From Raja brachyura (lineage: Eukaryota), in contig OY740792.1 of assembly GCA_963514005.1 (NCBI GenBank), positions 36,208,001-36,272,000 on the forward strand: 64,000 nucleotides of DNA, in the 5' to 3' direction. Below the pieces are notes generated by a model. That model made no database searches, was not told the origin of the DNA, and was given only the letters and a program-made list of their open reading frames with translations. Below, piece after piece: positions 3,626-43,800 of this stretch. How positions within the stretch are numbered: position 1 is the first letter of the stretch; each line of letters opens with the position of its first letter. The position numbers were made by a program, and so were the translations under genes.

Positions 3626-5920
3626 TTCTTATCAAAATTTCAAGATCACCTGCAGCTCATTATTGGTGGTTATTCAAACCGAGCCAATGTAGCAGATATA
3701 AAATGTATTTTTGAATGAAATAGCCTGGATAGAGTGGACGTGGAGAGGATGTTTCTATAAGTGGGGGAGTCTCGGACCAGAGGCCATAGTCTCAGAGTAA
3801 AAGGACGTACCTTTGGAAAGGAGATGAGGAGGATTTTATTTTAGTCAGTGGGTGGTGAATCTGTGCAATGTGGCTGTGGAGGCCATCAATGCACATTTTT
3901 AAAGCAGAGATTGACACATTCTTGATTGGTAAGGGAATCGGAGGTTATGGGGAGAAGGCAGAAGAATGGGGTTGAGAGGGAAAGACAGATCAGCCATGGC
4001 GGAGTAGATTTGATGGGACGAATGGCCTAATTCTGCTCTTATGAAATATTATAGTATTTTAAAATTTCAGTATGCGCCCTCTGTGTATGTTGAAATCATG
4101 AGGGGAATAAATAGGACAGGTACACAGAGTCTTTCACCCAGGGTAGGGGAACCATGAACTAGAGGTCATAGATTTAAGGTGAAAGTCAGGGGAGAGGGAA
4201 ACTGAAGGAATGAGGAGTTAAAGAACAAAAGACTGAAAAGGTATGAAAAGTACAAATCAAGGACAGCAAGATGATCAAGGAAAGGTGGAGCCCACAATGG
4301 TCCATTGTTGGCGGTGAAAGAGGTGGATAATGAAGGAATACGAACAGTGAAACTGGTGGGAGAACTAGGGTGGAGGAGAGACGGGGAAGAGAGGGAATGC
4401 AAGGGTTACTTACAATTAGAGAAATCATAATTCATACCGCTGGGTTGTAAGCTGCCCAAGCAAAATATGAGGTGCCGTTCCTCCAATTAGAGTGTGGCCA
4501 CATTCTGACAGCGGAGGAAGCCCAGGACAGAAAGCTCAGTATGGAAATGAGAAGTGGAGTTAAAATGTTTGGCAACCGGGAGATGTTTGCTGTTGACGTT
4601 TGCCGTTGACGTTTGCTGAGGCTTAATAGCAGTGATTCACACTCCATTAATATAACACTGTGTTTTATTAAAGGTCATTGTCTCCAAGTTCAACAGAAAA
4701 GCTACATTTAAACTCGCCTCCACCATAATTAACCTGTCCAATGCTATATTATCCCTTATCACCTCCTGTCACTACTATAATTATTCAGATTACCAGCAGT
4801 TCACTGGTTACTATCCAAAGGAGAAAGTCAACTGTCGGCAAGGGAAAAATAACACATAATGATTAAAGTAACTGAATGGTTGGAATGCCTCTACAGTGTC
4901 AGAGACCCAAGTTCGATCCCGACCTCGGGTGCTGTTTGTATGTGGAGTTTGCACGTTCTCCCTATGACCTTGTGGGTTTTCTCCAGGTACTCTGGTTTTC
5001 TACTACATTCCAAGGTTTGTAGGTTAAATTGCCCCAACTGTTTAGGGAGTGGATGAGAAAGTGGGATAACAAGGAACTGGCGTGAATGGGTGATTGATGG
5101 TCGGATTTGGTGACCCGAAGGGCCTGCATCTCTAAATTAAGCTAAATTGCAATTGCTTCTGGTTGCTGCAATTAGTCTTCACCATCCAAGTCTGCACAAC
5201 CTCTCTGTAACTAAACCCCCTAATCCAGGTATCGTCCTTGTAAACCTCATCTGCACCCTTTTCAAAGTCTCCACATCCTTCCTGAAATGAGGCGACCAGA
5301 ATTGCCCACAATACCCCAAATACAGCCTAACCAAAGCCTTATAATGTAACAGAAAGGTACTACAAATATTGGTTTATACCAAAGATAGACGCAAAATGTT
5401 AGATTAACTCAGCACGTCAGGCAGCATCTCTGGAGAACTTGGATAGGTGATGCTTCGGGTCAGGACCCTTCTTCAGACTGTTTTTTGGAGGGGATGGGGG
5501 GGGGGGGGGGCAGGTGGTTGGAGACAAACTGCAAGAGAGAAGAGGGGGCAGAACAAATCATGCCCGGCAATAGATTATCACAGGCGATGGGTTTCCTTGA
5601 TAGCAAGATTGCCAGACAAAGACTAGGGATCAGAACAGGTGTGAACACAAAAGGGATACATAGATGTGGACTGTGAAGCTAGTTAAAGAGCTTTTGATCT
5701 TATAAGGCAGCATCATGACTTCCTAACTCCTATACTCAATATGCCTTCTTTACCACTCCATCTATTTTTGTTGTTACTTTCATTCGTGGATTTGTCTCCT
5801 TCTGCATATCAATACCATATTTAAACACCTGCAATATATATATATATTATAATATCGGTGTTTAAATATAGATACTGTACCTTCCTTTTTATACATATAA
5901 TATAAAATATCTATTATATA

Positions 5921-7067: not shown

Positions 7068-7527
7068 AGGATAATTGGGTTAACAGATGATGAGCATTTG
7101 ACAGCACTGGACCTGTACTCACTGGAGTTTAGAAGGATGAGGTGGGGACACCTCATTGAGACTTACTGAATAGTGAAAGGTCTGGATACAGTGAGTGTGG
7201 AGAGGATGTTTCCACTAGTGGGAGAGTCTCGGACCACAGGGCACAGCCTCAGAATAAAGGACGTACCTTCAGAAAGGAGATGAGCTTTAATTGCTTTAGC
7301 CAGAGGGTGGTGAATCTGTAGAATTCTTTGCTACAGATGGCTGTCATTGGGTGTTTTTAAGGTGGGGACTGACAGATTTCTGATTATTATGGGTGTCAGG
7401 GATTATGGGGAGAAGGCAGGAGAATGGGGTTAGGAGGAAGCAATAGATCAGCCATGATTGAATGGCAGAGTATGGCCTCATTCTCCTCTGAGAAATTATG
7501 CACTTATGAACCACCATTACACCTTAC

Positions 7528-7935
7528 CCAGGCTTCTGACATTGACAGTGACGTTTTGTGTCCGCCTTTCAGACAGCTTCTGCCAGGATTTGTCTGGGTC
7601 TTGCATCCACTCCACACTCTGGCAGTGAAACTGCCCCTGCTCGGACCTCTGTAACTTGTGGACGGTGAGCCTGAACGAGGTAGCACCCATCTTGTCCAAT
7701 CTCACGTCTCCCGACTGATGCCTTTGCTTGTACAGCTCTCCTGTGCTCAGGATGAAATCTCGCGTTAGAGAGATGACCTGGACCTCCTGACCTCCCTTCT
7801 CCAGGTACCACGTGACGGCCACATGCGTGTGGTACGGCGTCTGTTTGGATACCTCGCAGACCAGCTCCAGCGAATCGCCTTCCACCTTATTGATGACCTG
7901 GGGCACCAATGTTGCACTCAATGTATCTGGAATAA
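7528..7935 (-). CDS. IGSF3/CD101-like gene, coding exon for Ig V-domain 2 (EWI-motif domain, here EWM)
   Basis: VIPDTLSATL...LELVCEVS...HTHVAVTWY...QGQFHCQSVEWMQDPDKSW. Acceptor ctctag, donor gtaagg; 408 nt, phase 1-1. Confidence 0.93.
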
Positions 7936-8749
7936 CTAGAGAAAGACATGTCTTAGAATCACTTGAAGACATCACACCGCATATATACAAGGCACATACA
8001 GGATCTCAGTAGTTCCCTGATAACTTAATTAGTCATAGCAGCAGAATTAGGCCATTTGACCATCAAATCTACGCTGCCATTCAATCATGTCTGATCTATC
8101 TTTCCCTCTGCAACTACTCTTTCTAGGCTTTCACTATTTGGAAAGTTTCAATGACATCACCTTTCATCGTTCTAAACTCCAGCGAGTGCAGGCCCAGTGC
8201 CGTCAAACCCTCATCATACGTCAAGCCAATTATCCCTGTCCTATTTCCCTTGGCTCAAGACACTGATAGGCCATACGGTGTCTTGCCATGTATAATAGAA
8301 AGTGGATACATTTAAGGCAGAGATAGATAGATTCTTGATTAGTATGGGTGTCAGAGGTTATGGGGAGAAGGCAGGAGAATGGGGTTAGGAGGGAGAGATA
8401 TGAGCCATGATTGAATGGCGGAGTAGACTTGATGGGCCGAATGGCCTAATTCTGCTCCTATCATTTTTGATCTATGACAATCCTAAATTGGATAGGAATG
8501 TTGCTCTTGGGATTCCGAGTGGAAAGTGCTTGTGTGTAGGTGGTACGCAGGAATTAGGCTACGCTTGAATAATTCTGAAGCTCAAATAGTATACCAGTCC
8601 CGTTAACCTTTTCACAAATGCCCTTTAGGAAAAGAAAGCAGCTCACACCAATGTGCGTGATTCTCAGCTTTCCTCAGATGAGTTTCTTTAATCAGTTTCA
8701 AGAAGTGCATAGAGGTTTGGATGTTATGCTACAGTTGCACAATGGCATT

Positions 8750-9057
8750 AGGGCTGCACGGTGGTGCAGCAGTAGAGCTGCTGCCAGACACCGTCAGGGA
8801 TTTTATCCTGACCATGGATGGTGTCTGTGTGGAGTTTGCACGTATTCCCTGTAACCGTGTGGGTCTCCTCCTGGTGCTCTGGTTTCCTCCCACATCCCAA
8901 AGACGTGCAGGTTTGTAGGTTAATTGGCTTCTATATATTGCCCCTAGTGTGTAGGGAGTGGATGCAAAACTGGGATAGCATAGAACAAATGGGTGATCGC
9001 TGGTTGGCATAGACTCGGCGGGCCCAACCAGCATTTCCACGCAGTATCTCTAAACTA
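8750..9057 (+). mobile_element. V-SINE (HE1-type: tRNA-derived head, V core, CR1-like tail), representative copy
   Basis: A/B-box head ggtggtgcagc...; core tgtgtggagtttgcacg...ggtttcctcccacatcccaaagac; tail tatctctaaact. More than 25 further copies in both orientations (e.g. 4870-5145, 10480-10765, 13925-14245, 23878-24200, 38480-38770, 41345-41612, 51285-51590). Confidence 0.85.
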
Positions 9058-9610: not shown

Positions 9611-9963
9611 TATGCCTACCTTCTCAGTACAGTCTCACAAATCCCATAGTCATACTTGCTGACAAGAATCTATCTGCACCCTATCTGAACTTCTTGTTGG
9701 ATTTAAAACATTTAATAGAATTACACAATATTGCGATTCGACATACTGGGAGGTTTTGTAATAGAACGTTACAGATTGCTTCATGCTGGAAACCTGAAGA
9801 TAACATTCTGATTGGGGTAAATTGAGATATTGAAATATTGAGTCTGTTTTTCTCTCAACAGGTACTGCCTGACCTGCTGAGTAATACTCCCAATGCGGTC
9901 TAACCGTTATTCCATCCTGCGCTGTGTGACCCGACAGCTGAACAGAAAGTAGAGGTAACCTAC

Positions 9964-10341
9964 CTGTTAACTTTGTGAATGCATTGTAAGATCCCCAATA
10001 TACATCCTCCATGTTGGGGGTGTGACAATCGTAAATGCCTTCATCGCTCTTCCGCAAGTTGGTGATGTGTAGCCGCGAGGAGTTGCTTTTGATTCTCTCC
10101 ACGTAGATCTCCCCAGACGCCACTCTTTGGCTGTACATGGCGTACGTGTAGTCAGGATCATGAGTGCTGATGATCTGAATCTTCCACGTAGGCCTATCCG
10201 GGAGGGTGACAGACCACTCGAAGCTCTGCTCTTGCAACGGCCGTGTTCCCCGCACCTTACACTCAATCGTGACGTGACGCCCTTCGGCCCGAACAAGGGG
10301 CCCTTCTGGTAATATCACCTGCCGTTGAGCGATACACGTCT
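9964..10341 (-). CDS. IGSF3/CD101-like gene, coding exon for Ig V-domain 1 (mature N-terminus QRQV)
   Basis: (E)TCIAQRQVILPEGPLVRAEGRHVTIEC...DEGIYDCHTPN..YWGSYNA, typical of IGSF2/3/8 domain 1. Acceptor ttacag, donor gtagg; 378 nt, phase 1-1. Confidence 0.93.
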
Positions 10342-11125
10342 CTGTAACCAGAAATAAATAGGTGAGGAACTACAGCTGCATGCTTTCTCCATCCCCTCAC
10401 AAAATCATTCCAACACAAGTGGAACTTTATTCTAAAAAAGCAAGACAACAACTTATCCAGAATCCATATAGATACAATTAGTTTAGTTTAGAGATACGGC
10501 ATGGAAACAGGCCCTTCAGCCCAGCGAGTCTGCAATGACCATTGATCACCCGTGCACTAGTTCTATTCTGCACACTAGGGGCAATTTACAGAGGGCCAAT
10601 TAACCTACAAACCCGCACGTCTTCAGGATGTGGAAGGAAACCGGAGCAACCAGAGGATACCCTCAGGGAGAATGTGCGAACTCCACACACAGACAACACC
10701 CAAGGTCAGGATGGAACCAGGATCTCTAGTCTTGTGCGGCAACAGATCTACCGCTGCGCCACTGTTACACTGATGGAATTCTAAAGCAATCCAAAAAAAA
10801 TGCGGAATAAATTTTAAAAAGGCTTATTTTACAACTGATCACTGAATATTTGCCTCGTGTGCTGTGGTATTGGTGAGCAAATCCAACAAAGATAAACCTT
10901 AAAATACACAAAGTGCTGGATTAACTCAACGGGTCAGGTAGCATCTCTGGAGAAAAAGGATAGGTGACGTTTCGAGTCAAGGCCCTTCATTAGACTGAAA
11001 ATAAAGGGGGAGGAACTGGAGGTAGGAAAAGGCCAGAGAAAATCAGGGCCAGTAGCAGATGACCAAGGAAGGGTAGAGCCCATAATGGCCCATTGTTGGC
11101 TGAGGAAGAGACTTCTACATGAACT

Positions 11126-12030
11126 AAGATAGACACAAAAAGCTGAAATAATTCAGCGGGACAGGCAGCATCTCAGGAGAGAAGGAATGGGTGATGTTTC
11201 AGGTCGAGACCCTTCTTCAGACCGGTTAGGGATACGAGAGATATAGATGGTGATGTGGAGAGATAAAGAACAATGAATGAAAGACAAGCAAAAAGTAAAG
11301 TTGATAAAGGAAACAGACCATTGTAAGCAGTTTGTAGGGTGAAAACGAGAAACTAGTGCGACTTGGATGGGGGAGGGATAGAGAGAGATGGAATGCCGGG
11401 GCTACCTGAAGTGAGGTCTGAAGAAGGGTCTCGACCTGAAACGTCACCTATCTCCTTCGCTCCTTAGATGCTGCTGCACCCGTTGAGTTTCTCCAGCTTT
11501 TTGTGCAACCCCCGTGAGAGAAATCAATATGCATACCACTGGGCTGTAAGCTGCCCAAGCGGAATATAAGATGCTGTTCCTCCAATTTGCGTTTAGCCTC
11601 ACTGACAATGGAGGAGACCGAGGACAGAAAGGTCTGTGCAGGAATAGGAAGGCGTATTAAAGTGTCCGGCAACCGGGAGATCAGGTTGGTTCATGCGGGC
11701 TGAGCAAAGGTGTTCCGCGAAACGATCGCCCAGTCTGCGCTTGGTCTCACTGATGTATAAGAGTCCACATCTTGAACAACGGATACAGTAGATGAGGTTG
11801 GAGGAGGTGCAAGTGAACCTCTACCTAACCTGAAAGGCCTGTTGGGGTCCCAGGACAGAGTCGAGGGAGGAGGTATAGCGACAGGTGTTGCATCTTCTGC
11901 AGTTGCAGGGGAAGGTACCTGGGGAGGGAATGGTTTGGTTGAGATGAGTTTACCAGAGAATTGCGGAGGGAACAGCCTCTGCGGAAGGCGGAAAGTGGTG
12001 AAACTGGGAAAATATGGCTAGTGGGAGTAG
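11126..12030 (-). mobile_element. Penelope-like element 3' fragment with GIY-YIG endonuclease remnant and terminal repeat
   Basis: Minus strand: FTCTSSNLIYCIRCSRCGLLYISETKRRLGDRFAEH ... KRKLEEQHLIFRLGSLQPSG. Related fragments at ~4190-4580, 24570-25170, 50485-50850, 52210-52505, 54585-54975. Confidence 0.85.
11414..11449 (+). ncRNA. Minimal type I hammerhead ribozyme motif (Penelope-associated)
   Basis: aggt-CTGAAGA-A-GGGT ctcg ACCT-GAAAC-GTC-acct: intact core, stem II, palindromic ACGT stem III, GUC triplet, 4-bp stem I. Confidence 0.7.
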
Positions 12031-14676
12031 GGGATAGAGTCTTTGTAGGAAGCAGCGTGGGAGGAAGTGCAGTCAAGCTAGTTGTGGGAGTCAATGGGTT
12101 TGTATGTCTACATGAACTAAATCTGATCCTGTTTTTTTATGAAGATAATATTTAAGACCACTATTTTGTAATAGTTACTGGTATGTTAAGTAGTCACTGG
12201 AAAGCAGAGAAGTGAATAGCGAGCTTCAACAAACGTCCCAGTAGCCATCCGGGAGAAAGGTAGGCAATTAAGTCAAACTGCTCATAATGACAATGTTCCT
12301 AATAACTTTGATTTCTAGTGGGATGCAGACTGTGACCATCTAATGGGTATCTAATGCTGTGTTCTTGTTAAATATCTAAGCAGTTTATTTAAATGATTCT
12401 CTTCAATCTTCATCAGACACATTTGAGAAGCAGCAACACAGTTAAACTGATGCCCTGTGACACTCCTGAATGTTTTCTGTGTTAATTAAATGCTAGGTGA
12501 TGGAACACCTTGGGATTGGTCTCGGGTATTGAAAGATGTTGGTGAAGGAGGCATATGGTATGTTCGCCTTCATCGGTCGAGGCATTGAGTATACGAGTCA
12601 GGAAATTATGATGCACAGGCTCTTCGGCCCACAGAGTCTGTGCCAACCAGCGATCACCCCATACACGAGCATTATCCTACACACTAGGGGCAATTTACAA
12701 TGTTTAGCCTTTTAAAAATATTTAGGTATGTACATTGCAGGTTTAGAGGGATATGGGCTAAATGCAGGCATATGGGGCAAGCTTAGATGGGTCATATTGG
12801 TCGGCATGGACAGTTTGGGCTGAAGGGCCTGTTCCATGCTGCATGTCTCTGACTCTCACAAGCAATTGGATGGCTGCAGAGATGGATGCAAGTTTGCTTC
12901 ATTTGATATTATCTTTATTCATTGTAATGTACTCAATAATCTAAAGAGTTAGTGAAACAGGAAGTGGCTTCCGAAGTTCATTGGATCAAGTGCTAAACCT
13001 CAGCTGCAAGATGTTTGTGACCTGAACCCTGCCGAAGTCAGCAGAATAATAGAGGCAACTAGGCACCTTACCTCAAACTCAGAGACCCCGATTTTAAGTG
13101 TAAAGAGTTCAAACTTCAATTTAACTATGTAAAGGTTATCAGTAACATGTGTTTGATGCCCCCATGTGTCTTTAATATTAATCTTGAGACCTTGGTTTCC
13201 AGGAGGGAAAGATCGGGACCATATGTAAATAAAGCAAGCAGCAAATAAAATGCCGCCAAAAATGTTCGGCACAGTGACGTAGCGGTGGAGACCATGTTCG
13301 ATCCTGACAATGGGTGCTGTCCTTACGGAGTTTGTACATTCTCCCCGTGACCACATGGGCTTTCTTCAGGTGCTCTGGTTTCCCCCCCACCCCTCCTCCA
13401 AAGAGGTTCAGGTTTGTAGGTTTCTGTACGTTGTAAATTGTCCCTAGTGTGCAAGATAGTGCTAGTGCACAGGGTGATCGCTGGTCAGCGTTAAGTCATA
13501 AGGTCACAAGAAATAGAATTAGGCCATTCTGCCCATCAAGTCTACTCCACCATTCAATCATGGCTGATCTATCTCTCATTCTCCTGCCTTCTCCCCATAA
13601 CCTCTGACAACCTCCCAGTCGGTGGGCCGTAGGGCCTGTTTCTGCACTGTATCTCTAAAATATAAAGTCTAAAACAAATTGTGACAAACTGCTAAAGGAT
13701 CTCTGGGAACTAACTTTCTGTTTTATTCACAATTCCAGCATCTGCAATTCCTTGCGTCTCCATTTGACATTCTGGTGGTATATTTTAAATATCTATAAAC
13801 TAAACTTGAAACTAAACAATCTGTTCCTAAAAGTTAAAATACAACTTTCTATCATCTTCTCCTAATATATATTGTCGCCTGTACTTCCTCACTGTAAACA
13901 TTTCATACTTTTCTTTGAGCGATTGTTTAGTTTAGATATACAGGCCCTTTGACCCACCGAGTCCATGCCGACCATAAATCACACGTTCACACAAGTTCAA
14001 TGTTATCCCACTTTCTCATCCACTCCCTACACAGCAGGGGTGATTTACACAGGGCCAATTAACCTACAAACCCGCACATCTTTAGGATGTGGGAGGAACC
14101 CAGTGCAGCTGGAGGAAACCCAGGCAGTCGCAGTGAGAACGTGCAAACATCACATAGACAGCACCCGAGGTCAGGATCGAACCCGGATCGAACCCGGATC
14201 TCAAGCGTTGTGAGGCAGCAGCTCCACCAGCTATGCCACTGTGTTTAAGTTAACTTGGTTAAGGTAATCTTTAGAAACAAAGAACTTCAGACTGATCAGA
14301 ATGTGAAGAAGGGTCCCGACGTGAAACCCATGTTCTCCAGAGATTCTGCCTGATCCGCTGAGTTACTCCAGCATTTTGTGCCTTTTTCTAAAGGTAACCT
14401 TTGTCAGATTTCTTGACTGCCACTCCCTCTTCTGAGTTTAATTCACATGTCAGTCCGCTCTTGAAGCAAGAAATTCCAGTTCCAGCAGCCTGCTGTACAC
14501 AGCAACGTAATGAGTTCTCTCATCCTGATCTGCAGAATCCTTTTTCAACCACGAATGTACCAGCTGGGCTGTTTATGCACCAACACAAAGCATCCTCCAT
14601 ATCATGGCTGCAGTCTCCACAACTGATCTCGACAACTAGGGCAGCACGGTGGCACAGCTGTAGAGGTGTTGCCTTA

Positions 14677-16102: not shown

Positions 16103-16205
16103 GGGGGGTTACACAAAAGGCTGGAGAAACTCAGCGGGTGCAGCAGCATCTAAGGAGCGAAGGAGATAGGCGACGTTTCGGGTCGAGACCCTTCTTCTAT
16201 CTCCT
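16103..16205 (-). mobile_element. ~100-bp Penelope-derived mini-element with decayed hammerhead
   Basis: 14-bp TSD cttaataagtgaag (16089-16102 / 16206-16219); same family as 11416-11513. Confidence 0.8.
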
Positions 16206-35751: not shown

Positions 35752-35939
35752 AAGAAGGAACTGCAGAGGTAGAAGGTAGACAAAAATGCTGGAGAAACTC
35801 AGTGGGTGAGGCAGCATCTATAGAGCGAAGGAAATAGGCGATGTTTCGGGTCTGAAGAAGGGTTTCGACCTGAAACATCACCTATTTCCTTTGCTCCATA
35901 GATGCTGCCTCACCTGCTGAGTTTCTCCAGCATATTTGT
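35752..35939. mobile_element. Fold-back (inverted pLTR) Penelope-derived mini-element with central hammerhead motif
   Basis: ~75-bp inverted arms; 15-bp TSD ctacaataatggcta (35737-35751 / 35940-35954). Confidence 0.8.
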
Positions 35940-37875: not shown

Positions 37876-40800
37876 TTACTCCTTGTCTGCTTCTAATTTC
37901 AGTTTTATTTTTTTATGGTGCTTGTGGAGGAAACAGAAATTATTTAATTTTGAAACCAGAAGATAATGTTAACTTGGCATTGCCTTCACTTTCACATTGT
38001 GGAGTTCATATTGAATCATTTCTCCACTCCCTCTCCACAAGATCAGTCTACATAACCCACAGAGCTCACATATATCAAGCTGCACCTTCTACAATATGTT
38101 TGGGCATGTTAACCATGTCAGCTGGGTGAGGTAGTCAACTCTTGTTCAACCAAGCAAAGTTCAATAACTCTGCCCACGACGGCTGTTTTCAAGGACTACC
38201 CAATTTTCCCACTCCCCTACACCCTCCCCAATGTCCTGACAATTCTCTCTCTCTCTGTGTCAAATTTCTTGTTGACAATTACTAACGAATCATTTCCCAC
38301 TTCCCTGTCAGTCACGGTGTTCCAGATCACAAAATTGTAAGCACAAAATGGAGACACAAGGAACTGCAGATGCTGGAATCAAGAGCAGAACACAAAGTGC
38401 TGGAGGAACTCAACAGGTCAGGCAGCATCTGTGGAGGGAATGGACAGGTGACGTTTCAGGTCAGGACCCTGAAAAATGTAGACTTTAGAGATACAGCATG
38501 GAAACAGCTTCGGCCCACTGAATCCATGCCGACCAGAGATCACCCCGTACACGAGGCTACCCTACGCACTAGGGACAACTTACAATATAGGGAAGACAAT
38601 TAACCTACAAAACTGCACATCTTTGGAGTGTGGGAGGAAACCGGATCGCCCGGAGAAAACCCACATGGTCACAGGGAGAACGTATAAACTCCGTACCGAC
38701 AGCACAGCTAGTCCGGATCGAACCCAGGTCTCTGGTGCTGTAAGGCAGCAGCTGTGCTACCGTGCTGCCCCAATTGCTGTGGAGCGTTCCTTCCTGCCTT
38801 GTTTCTTAATACTGAAACTGATCTTCCAAGTAGAAAGAAACCAACATATAATTAAATGCGCAGGTCAAAATGAAAATGCCACTCTGGTTTGTGTTTGAAC
38901 CCATATTAGCAAATTATAGAACTTACTAATTTATCTTAATGGGTACGTTAGAGTTCTTGCTCTATTACCCTCCAGTGATGTAACTTTAACGATCTATTCT
39001 GTGTTATTTACTCATCAAAAGACACAGAAAATTACAGCACAGGAACAGGCCCTTTGGTCCACAATGTTTGTGCCGAATGATGGCAAGATAAATTGACCTT
39101 CTTTGCCTGCACGCGATGCATATCCCTCCATTCCCTGCATCTCCATGTGCCTCTGTAAAAGTCTCTTAAACGCCACGATCGTGTCTGCCCCCACCACCAC
39201 CCCAAGCAGCACATTCCAGGCATTCACCAGCCTCTGTGTAAAAAAACATGCCCTGCACATCTCTTTTAAACTTCTCACCTTAAAGTTATGCCCTCTACTC
39301 TTTAACATTTCCACCCTGGGAAAAGGTTCCGTCTGCCCTATCTCTGCCTCTCGTAATCTTATATACATTTATCAGCATGAAAATAGGCCCTTCAGCCCAC
39401 CGAGGCCACGCCGACCAGCGATCATCCTTTCACACTAGTTCTACGTTCTCCTACTTTCACATCTACTCCCTAAACAGTAGGGGCAATTTACAGGGGCCAA
39501 TTAACCTACAAACCCGCACATCTTTGGGATGTGTGAGGAAACCGGAGCACCTGGAGAAAACCCAAGCGGTCACAGGGAGAACGTGCAAACTCCGCACTGA
39601 CGGCACCGGAGGTCAGGATCGGACATGGGTTCCTGGAGCCGAGGGGCAATGGCAGCTGTGCCACAGCGCCGCCCTAGTGGTGTGGTTGGTAAGGATGTCA
39701 AAGGTTACGGGGAGAAGGCAGGAGAATGGGATTGAGCTACTGTGTCTTATGGTCCAAACTCTATTTGATTGTCCCTGCCATCAGTTGGACCATAAGTTCT
39801 AGGAGCAGAATTAGGCCATTCGGCCCATCGAGTCTACTCCGATTTAATCGTGGCTGATCTTTCTTTCCGTCTCAAAATATTTCTGCTGCCTTCTCCCCAT
39901 GACCCCTGACACCCTTACTAATCAAGAATATGTAAATCACGACCCTAAAAATACCCAATGACTTCTCCTCCACAACCATCAGTGGCAATGAATTCCACAG
40001 ATTCACCATCCTCTGAGGAAAGGAAGTCCTTCTCATCTCCTTTCTAAAAGAGATTCTGAGGCTGTGACCTCTGGTCCTAGACTTTCCACTAGTGGAAACA
40101 TCTTCTCCACGTCCACTCTATCCAGGCCCTTCACTATTCAGATAGTTTCAATTATGTCTCACCTCATCCTTCTAAGCTCCAGCGAGTACAGGCCCAGTGC
40201 CGTCAGACATCACCATCCGTTAACCAAATCAGACAGACCGGGTATGTCTGAACAATGGGCCTTTAAGTTAGAAAAGGATCGGCATTGCAACTAATTGAAC
40301 TGGAATCCAGATGATTTACTACAGCTTCGGAGTGTTTGGTCTGACTGCTGGGAGTCTCGTCAGTTAGCCTCGGCCGAGTGTTTTACGATAACAGTAATAT
40401 TCTTCTGTGTATTTTGACGTATACATGCATATTTCTGCATGAATTCCTTAGTGTTTATTCACCCCAGGGCCAGGCTTGGCGTTAGCTAAACTGTAATCTT
40501 ACTAAAGATTACACGGTTGAAGGCAATTTTGAGATATTTCTCAGTCCTCAAACTGTGGCCAGACATCAAAGGCAGCAAAGATCTTGTGCAAAGTTCAATA
40601 ATAATCTTTCACCGACTTGACCTCACTGAAACAAAGCATGTATGTACCTGTAAACACGACACACAAGGAACTGCAGATGACAGAATCTTGAGCAAAACAC
40701 AAAATGCTGGAGGAACTCAGCGGGTCAGGCAGCACCTGTGGAGGGAATGGACCAAAGACGCTTCGGATCGGGACCCTTCTGCAGACTGATAGGGAGGAGG

Positions 40801-43800
40801 AAAGCTGGAAAAGCGGTGTGGGCAGGACAAAGCACGGCAATCGATTGTAGGATGTAGAATCAAAGGACTGTAGATAGAAGCAAAATGCTGGAGTAACTGA
40901 GTGTCAGGAAACTTCTCTGGGGGACATAGTTGACGTTTTGGATCAGAGCCCTTCCTCAGACCTTCAACGATAGTGTTGTTTAAGATACTTTTAGATAGGC
41001 AGAGGATGGAATTGATATGGATTATGTGCAGGCAGTGATTGGTTTAACCTGGCATCATGTTCAGCACAGACATAGTGGGCTGAAGGGCCTGTTCCTGTGC
41101 TGTACCTGAGATTTTCTTCAGCTCACCATATATATAAATTCACAAGAGCATATTTTTCCACAATAACAGAAGGTTCAAATGACAGCTTAGAGCATTGCCA
41201 TTCTGAACACTCATACACAACTGGTGTCTAACTGCTGCAGGTATGTATTGAGCCAGTAAATTTGAGCAAGATTTTATGCCCATGTTTACACCATCATTTA
41301 GATGTAGATTTAGGTTTATTACTGTCACATGTGCAAACATGCTCTTCAGCCCACCTAGTCCATGCTGACCAGCGATCACTAACACTTTCCTACACACTAG
41401 GGACAATTTACATTTCTTTCCAAAGCCAATTAACCTACAAACCTGCACGCGTTTGAAGTATGGGAGGAAACCGGAGCACCAGGAGAAAACCCACGTGGTC
41501 ACGGGGAGAACGTGCAAACTCCACACACACACACACAGCACCCGTAGTCAGGATGAAACCCGGATCTCTGGCACTGTGAGGCAGCAACTCTACCACTGCA
41601 CCACCGTGCCGCCTCACGGGGGAATGATGCCTACGGGGGTGAGATTGGAACAAACAGGTGAGTGGCTGGGGAGTAGACCTGCGAGACGCTCAGGTGATGA
41701 AATCAGGGGAGTGGGGGCTGTCAATTAAAATGCAACTTGTATCAGAATTGCAGCTGCCCCCTCGAGCCCTTACCCTCCACTCTACTGGGAGGAGGAAGAA
41801 CAGATGTCGACTAAACCATAAAGAAGGTTTCAGAGACGGGCCTGTCTCTGTCTTTTGCTGCCATTTTGTGGTATAATGTACGGGGATCTATCCAGCTCAG
41901 GTGGTTTTATCTCTGCACTCCCTTCCCACTACCTAAAATTGTACAATAGAGGGTGTGAGAAATAAAAAGCACCACTTAAACCCCCTCCTTATCAGCTGTC
42001 CCAAACCTAAAGGTTAATTGGCTTCTGTAAACTGCCCCTTGAGTGGAGGATAGAACTAGTGTAGGGCAATCGATGGTCGGCACAGACTCGGTGGGCCAAA
42101 GGGCTTGTTTCCATGCTGTATCTCTAAACTAAACTAAATTAAACTTTATATGGACAAGTCAGTGTGATTACTTTACATTGCAATGTGATATCATTGCTAT
42201 TTATTAGATAATTCCTTTAATACCTTAATGAAAATGATTTAGAGCAGAATAGATTAAATATGGGCATAAAGTGCTGGAGTAACACAGTGAGTCAGGCAAG
42301 ATCTTTGAGGAACATGTACAGATGATATTTCAAACTGAAGACCCTTCTTTAGACTGATTGTGTCTACGGGGCTTGTTAGATGTATAGTTTAGAAACAAAG
42401 AACTGCAGATGCTAATTAATACACAAAAGGACACAAAGTGCTGGAGTAACTCAGAAGGTCAGGCAGCATCTCCGGAGAACATGGATAGGTGAAGTTTCAG
42501 CTCGGGACCCTTCTTCAGACCCGAAACATCACCTGTCCAAGTTCTCCGGAGAGATGCTGCTTGGCCTGCTGAGTTACTCCAGCACTTTGTCTTTTTTTTT
42601 GTGAACCAGCACCTGCATTTCTTTGTATCCAAAAATGAAATAGGGCTCCCATTTTGGCAAGATGAACCAAATAATCTTGCTTCTCTACTTTTTCTCATGT
42701 ACCTTGCGACTTTTATTTCCTTTTAATATATATTAATCTAACTCCCTTTTGAAATATTACTTTTGAATATACTTCCTCTGCTCATTCAGGCAGTGGATGC
42801 CAACTTAGTACCATTCCCTTTCACTTGATGTTTCTCCATGTTCACTCCACCGACTCATTTAAATTGAGCACATTGATCAAATCCTCTCATAACCCTCACC
42901 CCCTGTAAAGATAACACCTGTCATCTTTCTTTTTTGCAGTCTTCCAACGTGCTCAGAAATTGTGAGATAATTAAACAATTGTTAATTAAACAAAATATTT
43001 TATAATACTTTGCATCTTGCGATAATTGTGTCAAAAACCAAAGCTTTCATAGCCCAGACCATCACGCAAAACCAACCGCCCTTCCATTGACTCCATCTAC
43101 ACTTCACGCTGCCACGGCAAGGCCACCAGCATAATCAAGGATGAGTCTCACCCCGATCATTCCCTCTTTTCCCTGCTCCCATCAGGAGAGAGATGCAGAA
43201 GTTTGAAAACACACACCTCCAGATTCAGGGACAGTGCCTTCCCAGCTGTTATCAGGCAAATGAATCGTCCTCTCACCAACTAGTCTTTGACATTACCTTC
43301 CTGGGAAACAGGTTCTGTCCACCCTATCTGCAGTACGCTTTTCATAATTGTATATATTTCTACCAGGTCTCCCCTCAGCCTCCTACAGTTCAGACAAAAC
43401 AATCTAAGTTTGACCATCCTCTCCTTATAGTTTAAACCTTCCAATCCAGGAGGTGACCTCCTCGGCACCTTCTGCTTGCCTCTACATCCTTCGTGTAAAG
43501 CAAAAACCAGTACTGCACAAAATAATGGTTTTGCAAGGACATGAAGATTCAGTATTACAAGTAGACATACTTATATACATCCGGTGGAGGAAAAGGCACT
43601 CTTTTAGAGTAATAGTCTTTCAGTATGGAAACAGTCCCTTCAGCCCAACTTGTCCTTGCCAGCCAAGATGCCCCATCTAAGCTGGTCACATTTGCCAAGA
43701 TCCCTCTAAATCTTTCCTATCCATGTACCCGTCCAAGTGTTTTTTAAATGCTGTTATAGTACAATAGTGTATTGTTTATGTGCAGTAGAGCTGCTGCCTC

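What the first reader, a model, noticed from the sequence alone, without database searches (positions are those of the whole stretch)
11414..11518. Hammerhead ribozyme carried by a ~98-bp mobile unit inserted into another Penelope element
Seen: 11416-11513 is flanked by gtgag/gtgag, interrupts a GIY-YIG PLE in the opposite orientation, and starts exactly at gtCTGAAGA-A-GGGTctcgACCT-GAAAC-GTC-acct, a complete hammerhead core with an extra A after A9 and a palindromic ACGT stem III. Known: Penelope-like elements carry minimal type I hammerheads that can act as dimers. Inference: these ~100-nt HHR-plus-tail units behave like SINE/retrozyme-style non-autonomous elements. Two bases of stem I come from the target site.
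Basis: partly seen in the sequence, partly recalled or inferred. Interest (0 to 1): 0.7.

Follow-up and report, generated by a model that had tools for sequence, protein, structure and literature searches.

The report
Run-off stump of a Penelope retrotransposon
This 98-base insertion is a short copy of the hammerhead-bearing end piece of a very abundant Penelope-like jumping gene, and about half of its sampled sister copies begin at the same spot, likely because the copying enzyme starts near the front of the element's RNA and runs off its start, which would offer a testable clue to how these elements rebuild their end repeats.

Summary
Observation confirmed: 11416-11513 is a real insertion with a 5-bp duplication (empty site found) in an older, oppositely oriented Penelope-like element (PLE), and it carries a minimal hammerhead. 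It is not a separate SINE or retrozyme. It is the 96-nt end module of a ~4-kb autonomous Neptune-type PLE (1204-aa RT/GIY-YIG frame); short and long copies share one majority haplotype with no diagnostic site. The 5' boundary is, however, not random: 53 of 109 tail-anchored arms start within 11 nt around the hammerhead's first base (1.5 expected), while the ribozyme cut site shows no excess (380 versus 469 at a control site). So the template was uncut RNA. 3' ends fall at ~96 or ~131, matching two published internal RT start sites. Best reading: internally primed cDNA runs off the RNA's 5' end, probably the transcription start. That step is inferred; no raw RNA reads were available. This copy's ribozyme has a G10.1-U11.1 decay and is predicted not to fold. 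The scan has noted the same pattern many times in this and other genomes.

The parts
11411..11415 (+). left copy of the 5-bp target-site duplication; its last two bases supply two pairs of hammerhead stem I
   Evidence: single copy in the empty site, L107
11416..11513 (+). inserted unit = positions 1-98 of the end module (pLTR) of a Neptune-type PLE, short-tail form; 5 differences from the full-length copy L336
11414..11449 (+). minimal type I hammerhead fold (core 11418-11424, extra A 11425, stem-loop II 11426-11437, GAAA 11438-11441, palindrome 11441-11444, C17 11445); activity untested
11437..11437 (+). C-to-T change (CpG site) turning the conserved G10.1-C11.1 pair into G-U
11446..11513 (+). 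tail after the cut site; predicted hairpin 11475-11507; ends at the first of two preferred 3' ends (~96 and ~131)
11514..11518 (+). right copy of the target-site duplication
11519..12104 (-). host PLE, older subfamily: decayed 3' part of the ORF including the end of the GIY-YIG domain
11133..11410 (-). host PLE: last codons, 3' UTR and its own hammerhead-plus-tail module (11133-11222)
10905..10997 (-). another decayed module of an older subfamily, 227 nt from the host's own module, core damaged
16105..16198 (-). near-identical sister copy of the same subfamily, with a 14-bp duplication and a short inverted piece at its 5' junction

Best explanation
The insert is a short copy of the end module of an autonomous Neptune-type Penelope-like retrotransposon, likely made when the element's reverse transcriptase, primed at a nicked target, started inside uncut element RNA about 96 nt from its 5' end and ran off that end, which is probably the transcription start just before the hammerhead. 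Shown: the module both ends long copies and runs straight into the ORF start in full-length copies; 3' ends sit at ~96 or ~131; about half of 5' ends sit at -4..+6; the cut site is not a preferred start; short and long copies are one lineage. Inferred: that the boundary is a physical RNA end and a Pol II start; that 96-nt copies are dead on arrival; that long copies arise when the run-off cDNA transfers to another part of the RNA or when tandem read-through RNA is used. The hammerhead is predicted to be a passenger in this copy.
For: Anatomy: in L335 and L336 the module continues into a 1204-aa RT/GIY-YIG frame and reappears 3969 nt later. 3' ends: 59 of 114 arms at 92-99 and 36 at 129-133, as for the two RT start sites mapped in vitro for an anole PLE, where uncut RNA is the template and product length follows the template's 5' end (PMC11167929, parts 1-2 read). 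5' ends: 53 of 109 arms at -4..+6 against 1.5 expected from the upstream rate of 0.0015 per nt. Genome-wide, 9,765 of 39,152 core matches lack the A at position 0 and 6,107 more lack the C at -1. Cut site: 380 versus 469 at a control position, about 230 versus 200 after removing substitutions in 30-locus samples. Junctions look like run-off and re-priming: fold-back inversions in 43 of 179 sampled loci and short duplications of the first bases in 19; flush junctions have background G (estimated G:Y 0.43 against 0.46) while 1-3-nt additions are G-rich (1.9; 8 of 19 versus 5 of 36, Fisher p 0.04); 10 of 328 boundary copies are joined to scattered internal element sequence; 3 of 5 partial pieces that include the ORF start (to positions 232-270) also end at the boundary. 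Contigs of two other organisms show loose ends and go-back joints at the same positions (contigs, weak). D. virilis Penelope has an internal promoter in its pLTR (PMC2377424, sections 15 and 18 read), and the boundary bases resemble the initiator-like TCACT named in PMC3846280.
Against: No raw RNA reads were available, so no transcription start was seen. The three full-length copies found start at -26, upstream of -39 and +37, none at the boundary. One of five ORF-start pieces (L315) continues upstream into the 3' UTR, so RNA crossing the boundary existed or a second transfer occurred. The G excess is only about twofold, and many additions look like fragments of the element's own first bases, so a copied cap is not shown. 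One-base insertions at the boundary in long copies, expected from end-to-end jumps, were seen in only 3 of 179 loci and none of the last 79. In D. virilis the start lies about 120 nt upstream of the hammerhead, with an intron between. The 5-bp duplication here is shorter than the 8-20 bp (mostly 9-16) resolved in sisters, though my finder could not report under 8 bp. Samples come from one end of contig C1.
Confidence: 0.62

Rival explanations
1. The boundary is set by RNA structure or bound protein, not by a transcription start: positions 1-12 pair with the end of the long tail, and this closed 131-nt domain either stops the enzyme or survives 5'-to-3' trimming of longer transcripts.
For: The 131-nt module folds with its first 12 bases paired to positions 120-130 (z -2.1, 6 of 200 shuffles as good), pair probability 0.7-0.9, so both preferred ends meet at the base of one helix. 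All three full-length copies start elsewhere. An exonuclease-made end would also give run-off junctions.
Against: The consensus fold of 11 diverse long-tailed copies does not contain this helix, and the 5' strand is invariant so covariation cannot be tested. The anole enzyme reads through its hammerhead in vitro. Structure stops usually lie at the 3' foot of a helix, not after its 5' strand (established knowledge, recalled).
Confidence: 0.2
2. Short units are a self-propagating non-autonomous family (SINE- or retrozyme-like) transcribed from their own internal promoter and copied in trans by the PLE protein.
For: Fixed ends and clean duplications in tens of thousands of copies. pLTRs act as cis elements in trans in a rotifer (PMC3846280, parts 1-3 read). 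Many weak young source copies would leave no diagnostic site.
Against: Same majority haplotype and minor variants in short, long and inverted copies; lowest p 0.025 over 80 positions; the rare tail variant of this very copy occurs in 10 long, 14 short and 2 inverted hits. No head-to-tail partner, unit not cut to cut, no tRNA/5S/7SL head. The anole protein needs RNA downstream of the RT start sites, which a 96-nt copy lacks (analogy).
Confidence: 0.12
3. The boundary is a 3' splice site (pyrimidine tract plus CAG at -1..+1) and short copies derive from spliced or splicing-intermediate RNA.
For: The sequence fits an acceptor, and in D. virilis an intron ends at the 5' end of helix I (PMC4209133).
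Against: No recurrent upstream exon among 328 boundary copies; the 10 element-derived joins are scattered. No canonical donor is visible in the 240 nt upstream (by eye). Only 4 of 57 boundary arms start at position 2, where an exon would start.
Confidence: 0.04

Closest known systems
5'-truncated insertions of endonuclease-positive PLEs, Neptune type (Craig et al. 2021, PMC8557442, passages seen; Arkhipova et al. 2013, PMC3846280, parts 1-3 read)
   Same: Single RT/GIY-YIG frame, Cys linker, partial-tandem pLTR, adjacent inverted copies, 35-nt tail on one end only (13 of 13 directly joined head-to-head pairs have one short and one long tail), solo pLTRs.
   Different: The passages read describe variable 5' truncation. 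A fixed 5' boundary used by about half of the copies was not found in them or in searches.
[quoted passage not shown]
   Same: Core, extra base between 9 and 10.1, palindromic 15.2-16.2, place in the pLTR, mostly single dispersed motifs which the authors ascribe to truncated PLEs.
   Different: Helix II is 4-5 bp instead of 7-8; native helix I is 2 bp (as in D. virilis); this copy has G-U at 10.1-11.1.
Poseidon PLE of the green anole, PAc (Frangieh et al. 2024, PMC11167929, parts 1-2 read)
   Same: Two internal RT start sites downstream of the hammerhead that define the tail; uncut RNA as template; both target strands extended; no RNA ends at the cut site.
   Different: Other clade; ORF starts inside the hammerhead there, downstream here; no genomic 5' hot spot in the parts read. 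Supplementary figures could not be seen and may bear on this.
Non-LTR retrozymes (Cervera and De la Pena 2020, PMC7229834, passages; Li et al. 2026, 10.64898/2026.07.22.740005, part 1 and passages)
   Same: Short, non-coding, type I hammerhead, related to PLE pLTRs.
   Different: Retrozymes are head-to-tail arrays with a hammerhead per unit and yield circles; this is a single unit spanning the cut site with a minimal motif.

Membership tests
EN+ Penelope-like element, Neptune type (parent element) | single ORF with RT and C-terminal GIY-YIG | tested here: met
   1204-aa frame in L335; RVT_1 E 2e-4 and GIY-YIG E 1.7e-3, both below Pfam's curated cut-offs
EN+ Penelope-like element, Neptune type (parent element) | CX2-5CxxC linker between RT and EN | tested here: met
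   C-X4-C-X2-C at residue 1071; motif from PMC8557442. Shared with Nematis; no tree was built
EN+ Penelope-like element, Neptune type (parent element) | partial-tandem pLTR, adjacent inverted copies, 30-40 bp tail at one end | tested here: met
   L335, L336; 3' ends ~96 and ~131; 13 of 13 joined pairs asymmetric
minimal hammerhead of metazoan PLEs | catalytic core, extra nucleotide between 9 and 10.1, palindromic 15.2-16.2 | tested here: met
minimal hammerhead of metazoan PLEs | G10.1-C11.1 pair | tested here: not met
   G-U in this copy; G-C in 178 of 219 family copies, so the family meets it and this copy has decayed
minimal hammerhead of metazoan PLEs | compensatory changes in helix II | tested here: inconclusive
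   only one-sided U-A to U-G and loop changes among the common haplotypes of a young family
minimal hammerhead of metazoan PLEs | self-cleavage as dimer or with protein | not testable with these tools
   monomer fold not favoured; no excess of genomic 5' ends at the cut site
non-LTR retrozyme | two or more head-to-tail units each with a hammerhead | tested here: not met
   single unit; nearest same-strand family copy 2.9 kb away
non-LTR retrozyme | canonical type I hammerhead with 6-bp helix I | tested here: not met
   helix I 2 bp native, 4 bp here; no Rfam match
non-LTR retrozyme | cut-to-cut monomer and circular RNA | tested here: not met
   unit spans the cut site and cut-site starts are at background; circles themselves not testable
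SINE | Pol III head from tRNA, 5S or 7SL | tested here: not met
   no such Rfam match at E up to 10
SINE | lineage separate from the partner autonomous element | tested here: not met
   no diagnostic site between 138 short and 53 long copies; many weak young sources not excluded

The most novel reading that the evidence does not exclude
Penelope-like elements make an obligatory strong-stop cDNA: the mRNA starts at the first base of the hammerhead, the enzyme can prime only ~96 or ~131 nt downstream, and longer or full-length copies, with their pseudo-LTRs, arise when this cDNA transfers to the 3' repeat of the RNA, much as in retroviral minus-strand transfer. The ~20,000 short units of this one subfamily are failed transfers, and the hammerhead sequence doubles as core promoter.
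Probability: 0.35. Interest if true: 0.72.

Novelty: new member of a known kind. Interest (0 to 1): 0.42.

Why it matters
The copy itself is one of tens of thousands. The family pattern matters more. [quoted passage not shown] A fixed 5' boundary at the hammerhead's first base, no excess at its cut site and strict one-short-one-long pairing give a genome-scale record of uncut templates, twin priming and run-off. If the boundary is the transcription start, a strong-stop and transfer step becomes directly testable with the existing in vitro PLE system. It also warns that such units should not be annotated as SINEs or retrozymes.

Tried and rejected
Rfam scans found no hammerhead. The first genome search, ranked by full-length match, was biased and was not used for the histogram; a tail-anchored sample replaced it, and 5 of 114 arms were dropped as segmental duplicates. 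Templates cut by the ribozyme: rejected, cut-site starts at background against one control position; an excess under about 1.5-fold is not excluded. A copied cap G: only weakly supported. End-to-end jumps marked by a one-base insertion: 3 of 179, not pursued. Spliced templates: no recurrent junction. Public runs held only contigs of other organisms, kind uncertain; no start or splice could be read, and no splice joint at the putative intron was among the rows shown. The G and Y junction samples cover 90 and 89 of the first 100 listed rows; 17 rows of another subfamily, 1 overlapping row and 3 last rows were left out. The head-to-tail dimer cofold did not give the hammerhead fold, which says little for a motif known to need helpers. 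One sequence look-up in earlier notes found nothing. Papers seen only in search listings were not used.

Full report
Observation. The insert, its coordinates and the GTGAG pair are as described. An uninterrupted sister of the host carries the pentamer once, which confirms the duplication. The host is an older PLE subfamily on the minus strand, interrupted in the last codons of its GIY-YIG domain, and has its own hammerhead module at 11133-11222. The hammerhead core is complete; a descriptor finds 2 hits in the window and none in 100 shuffles. Rfam has no matching model. The copy differs from a full-length relative at 5 positions, one of which turns G10.1-C11.1 into G-U. In context the hammerhead stems have pair probabilities of 0.06 or less. 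Positions below count from the first inserted base as +1.

What the unit is. The window holds 35 family matches. A 23-base tail motif of this subfamily has 53,233 exact matches in the 2.7-Gb genome. Walking upstream from long copies gave full-length elements: in L335 and L336 the module runs directly into a 1204-aa frame with weak RT and GIY-YIG Pfam matches and reappears 3969 nt later. A C-X4-C-X2-C linker at residue 1071 marks the Neptune type; I checked this after earlier notes used that label. The unit is thus the pLTR module: the end of every copy and the front of the next transcription unit. That the genome is a cartilaginous fish is my recollection from the repeat content, not a tool result.

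Ends of the copies. I sampled 114 arms by the tail motif alone from the first 4 Mb of contig C1 and dropped 5 segmental duplicates. 3' ends are bimodal, 59 of 114 at 92-99 and 36 at 129-133, like the two internal RT start sites of the anole element (PMC11167929). All 13 directly joined head-to-head pairs have one short and one long tail (one short arm was scored 104), the known one-sided tail, here best read as priming on both target strands. 5' ends are not random: 53 of 109 at -4..+6, 15 inside the module, 41 spread over 1.8 kb; the upstream rate predicts 1.5 in that window. Genome counts agree: of 39,152 core matches, 5,517 have G and 4,248 have C or T in place of the A at 0; 3,197 and 2,910 have G or A/T in place of the C at -1; 13,531 keep 8 upstream bases. 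About one match in ten belongs to other subfamilies. At the ribozyme cut site the count is 380 against 469 at a control position, about 230 and 200 after removing substitutions. The templates were uncut.

Separate family or by-product. Among loci not chosen by likeness to this copy, 74 of 138 short, 29 of 53 long and 34 of 58 inverted copies carry the same majority haplotype; 35 positions were fixed by the search motif; no position separates short from long (lowest p 0.025 of 80). The rare tail variant of this copy occurs in 10 long, 14 short and 2 inverted hits. The unit is single, spans the cut site and has no Pol III head, so it fails the retrozyme and SINE tests. Many weak young sources among short copies cannot be excluded.

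Why the boundary. Junctions suggest an enzyme that reaches an end and re-primes. In 179 loci sampled from the G and Y classes, 43 show fold-back inversions and 19 short duplications; resolved duplications are 8-20 bp; flush junctions have background G while 1-3-nt additions are G-rich (p 0.04). Ten of 328 boundary copies are joined to scattered internal element sequence, and 3 of 5 partial pieces containing the ORF start also end at the boundary. Contigs from two other organisms show loose ends and go-back joints at the same positions (weak, contigs only). The anole enzyme copies through its hammerhead to the template end. D. virilis Penelope has an internal promoter in the pLTR; the boundary bases resemble an initiator named for a rotifer PLE, and the ACGT palindrome at +26..+29 shares its core with the downstream element RGACGTGY (5 of 8 letters, suggestive only). 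I therefore favour run-off at a transcription start (0.62). Against it: no RNA start was observed; three full-length copies start elsewhere; one ORF-start piece crosses the boundary; the G excess is modest; in D. virilis the start lies further upstream. The main rival is a structure- or protein-defined end, since the 131-nt module folds with base 1 paired to base 130, though that helix is absent from the consensus fold of 11 diverse copies.

Comparison and verdict. It works like, and is, a 5'-truncated insertion of a Neptune-type PLE with a minimal hammerhead of the kind described in 2014, whose authors already ascribed single motifs to truncated PLEs. The fixed boundary was not found in the texts read or in searches; subscription papers, Repbase notes and the supplementary figures of PMC11167929 were not seen. 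The scan has recorded the same pattern repeatedly (157 notes by words, 59 in this genome); these are unchecked notes, not support, and my reading was formed before I saw them. Verdict: new member of a known kind, interest 0.42, with a strong-stop and transfer model as the novel case.

Noticed in passing
L336, module positions 90-163 (oriented 5463-5536): A 74-nt GT-AG stretch whose removal would put the ATG at position 53 (window 11468) in frame with the long ORF; the length is close to the 75-nt Penelope intron, and both RT start sites would lie inside it. Not seen among the joints shown.
   Followed up: partly
L158, L166, L172, L448, L479, L480: A repeat of at least 2.2 kb, 96-99% identical between loci, that carries head-to-head module pairs; either a host repeat carrying them passively or a PLE-mobilised composite.
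   Followed up: partly
G000:C1:1207515-1207796 (L055, L056): Two head-to-head modules, one short and one long tail, separated by about 170 bp of unrelated DNA, with outer flanks that read as one 14-bp duplication (by eye): possible capture of another template.
   Followed up: no
window 35781-35936 and 42432-42590: Fold-back pairs with the same junction, the inverted arm starting at about position 18-22 and the direct arm at position 1; the same junction recurs in 4 of 90 G-class loci.
   Followed up: partly
L415-L416 and L436-L438: Short head-to-tail arrays of partial modules lacking the hammerhead, periods 61 and 58 nt.
   Followed up: no
window 7520-8005 and about 9960-10310, minus strand: Ig V-set exons, EWI/IGSF3-like by recall; if the insertion lies in an intron of this gene it is antisense to the pre-mRNA. 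The upstream exon was not located.
   Followed up: partly
L335 5539-9150: The ORF has a Pro/Ser/Thr/His-rich stretch of about 300 residues before the RT domain.
   Followed up: no
window, e.g. 8798-8926, 10582-10760, 38557-38772: A second abundant short repeat family (D4, D5, D7), resembling a shark tRNA-derived SINE by recall; not tested.
   Followed up: no
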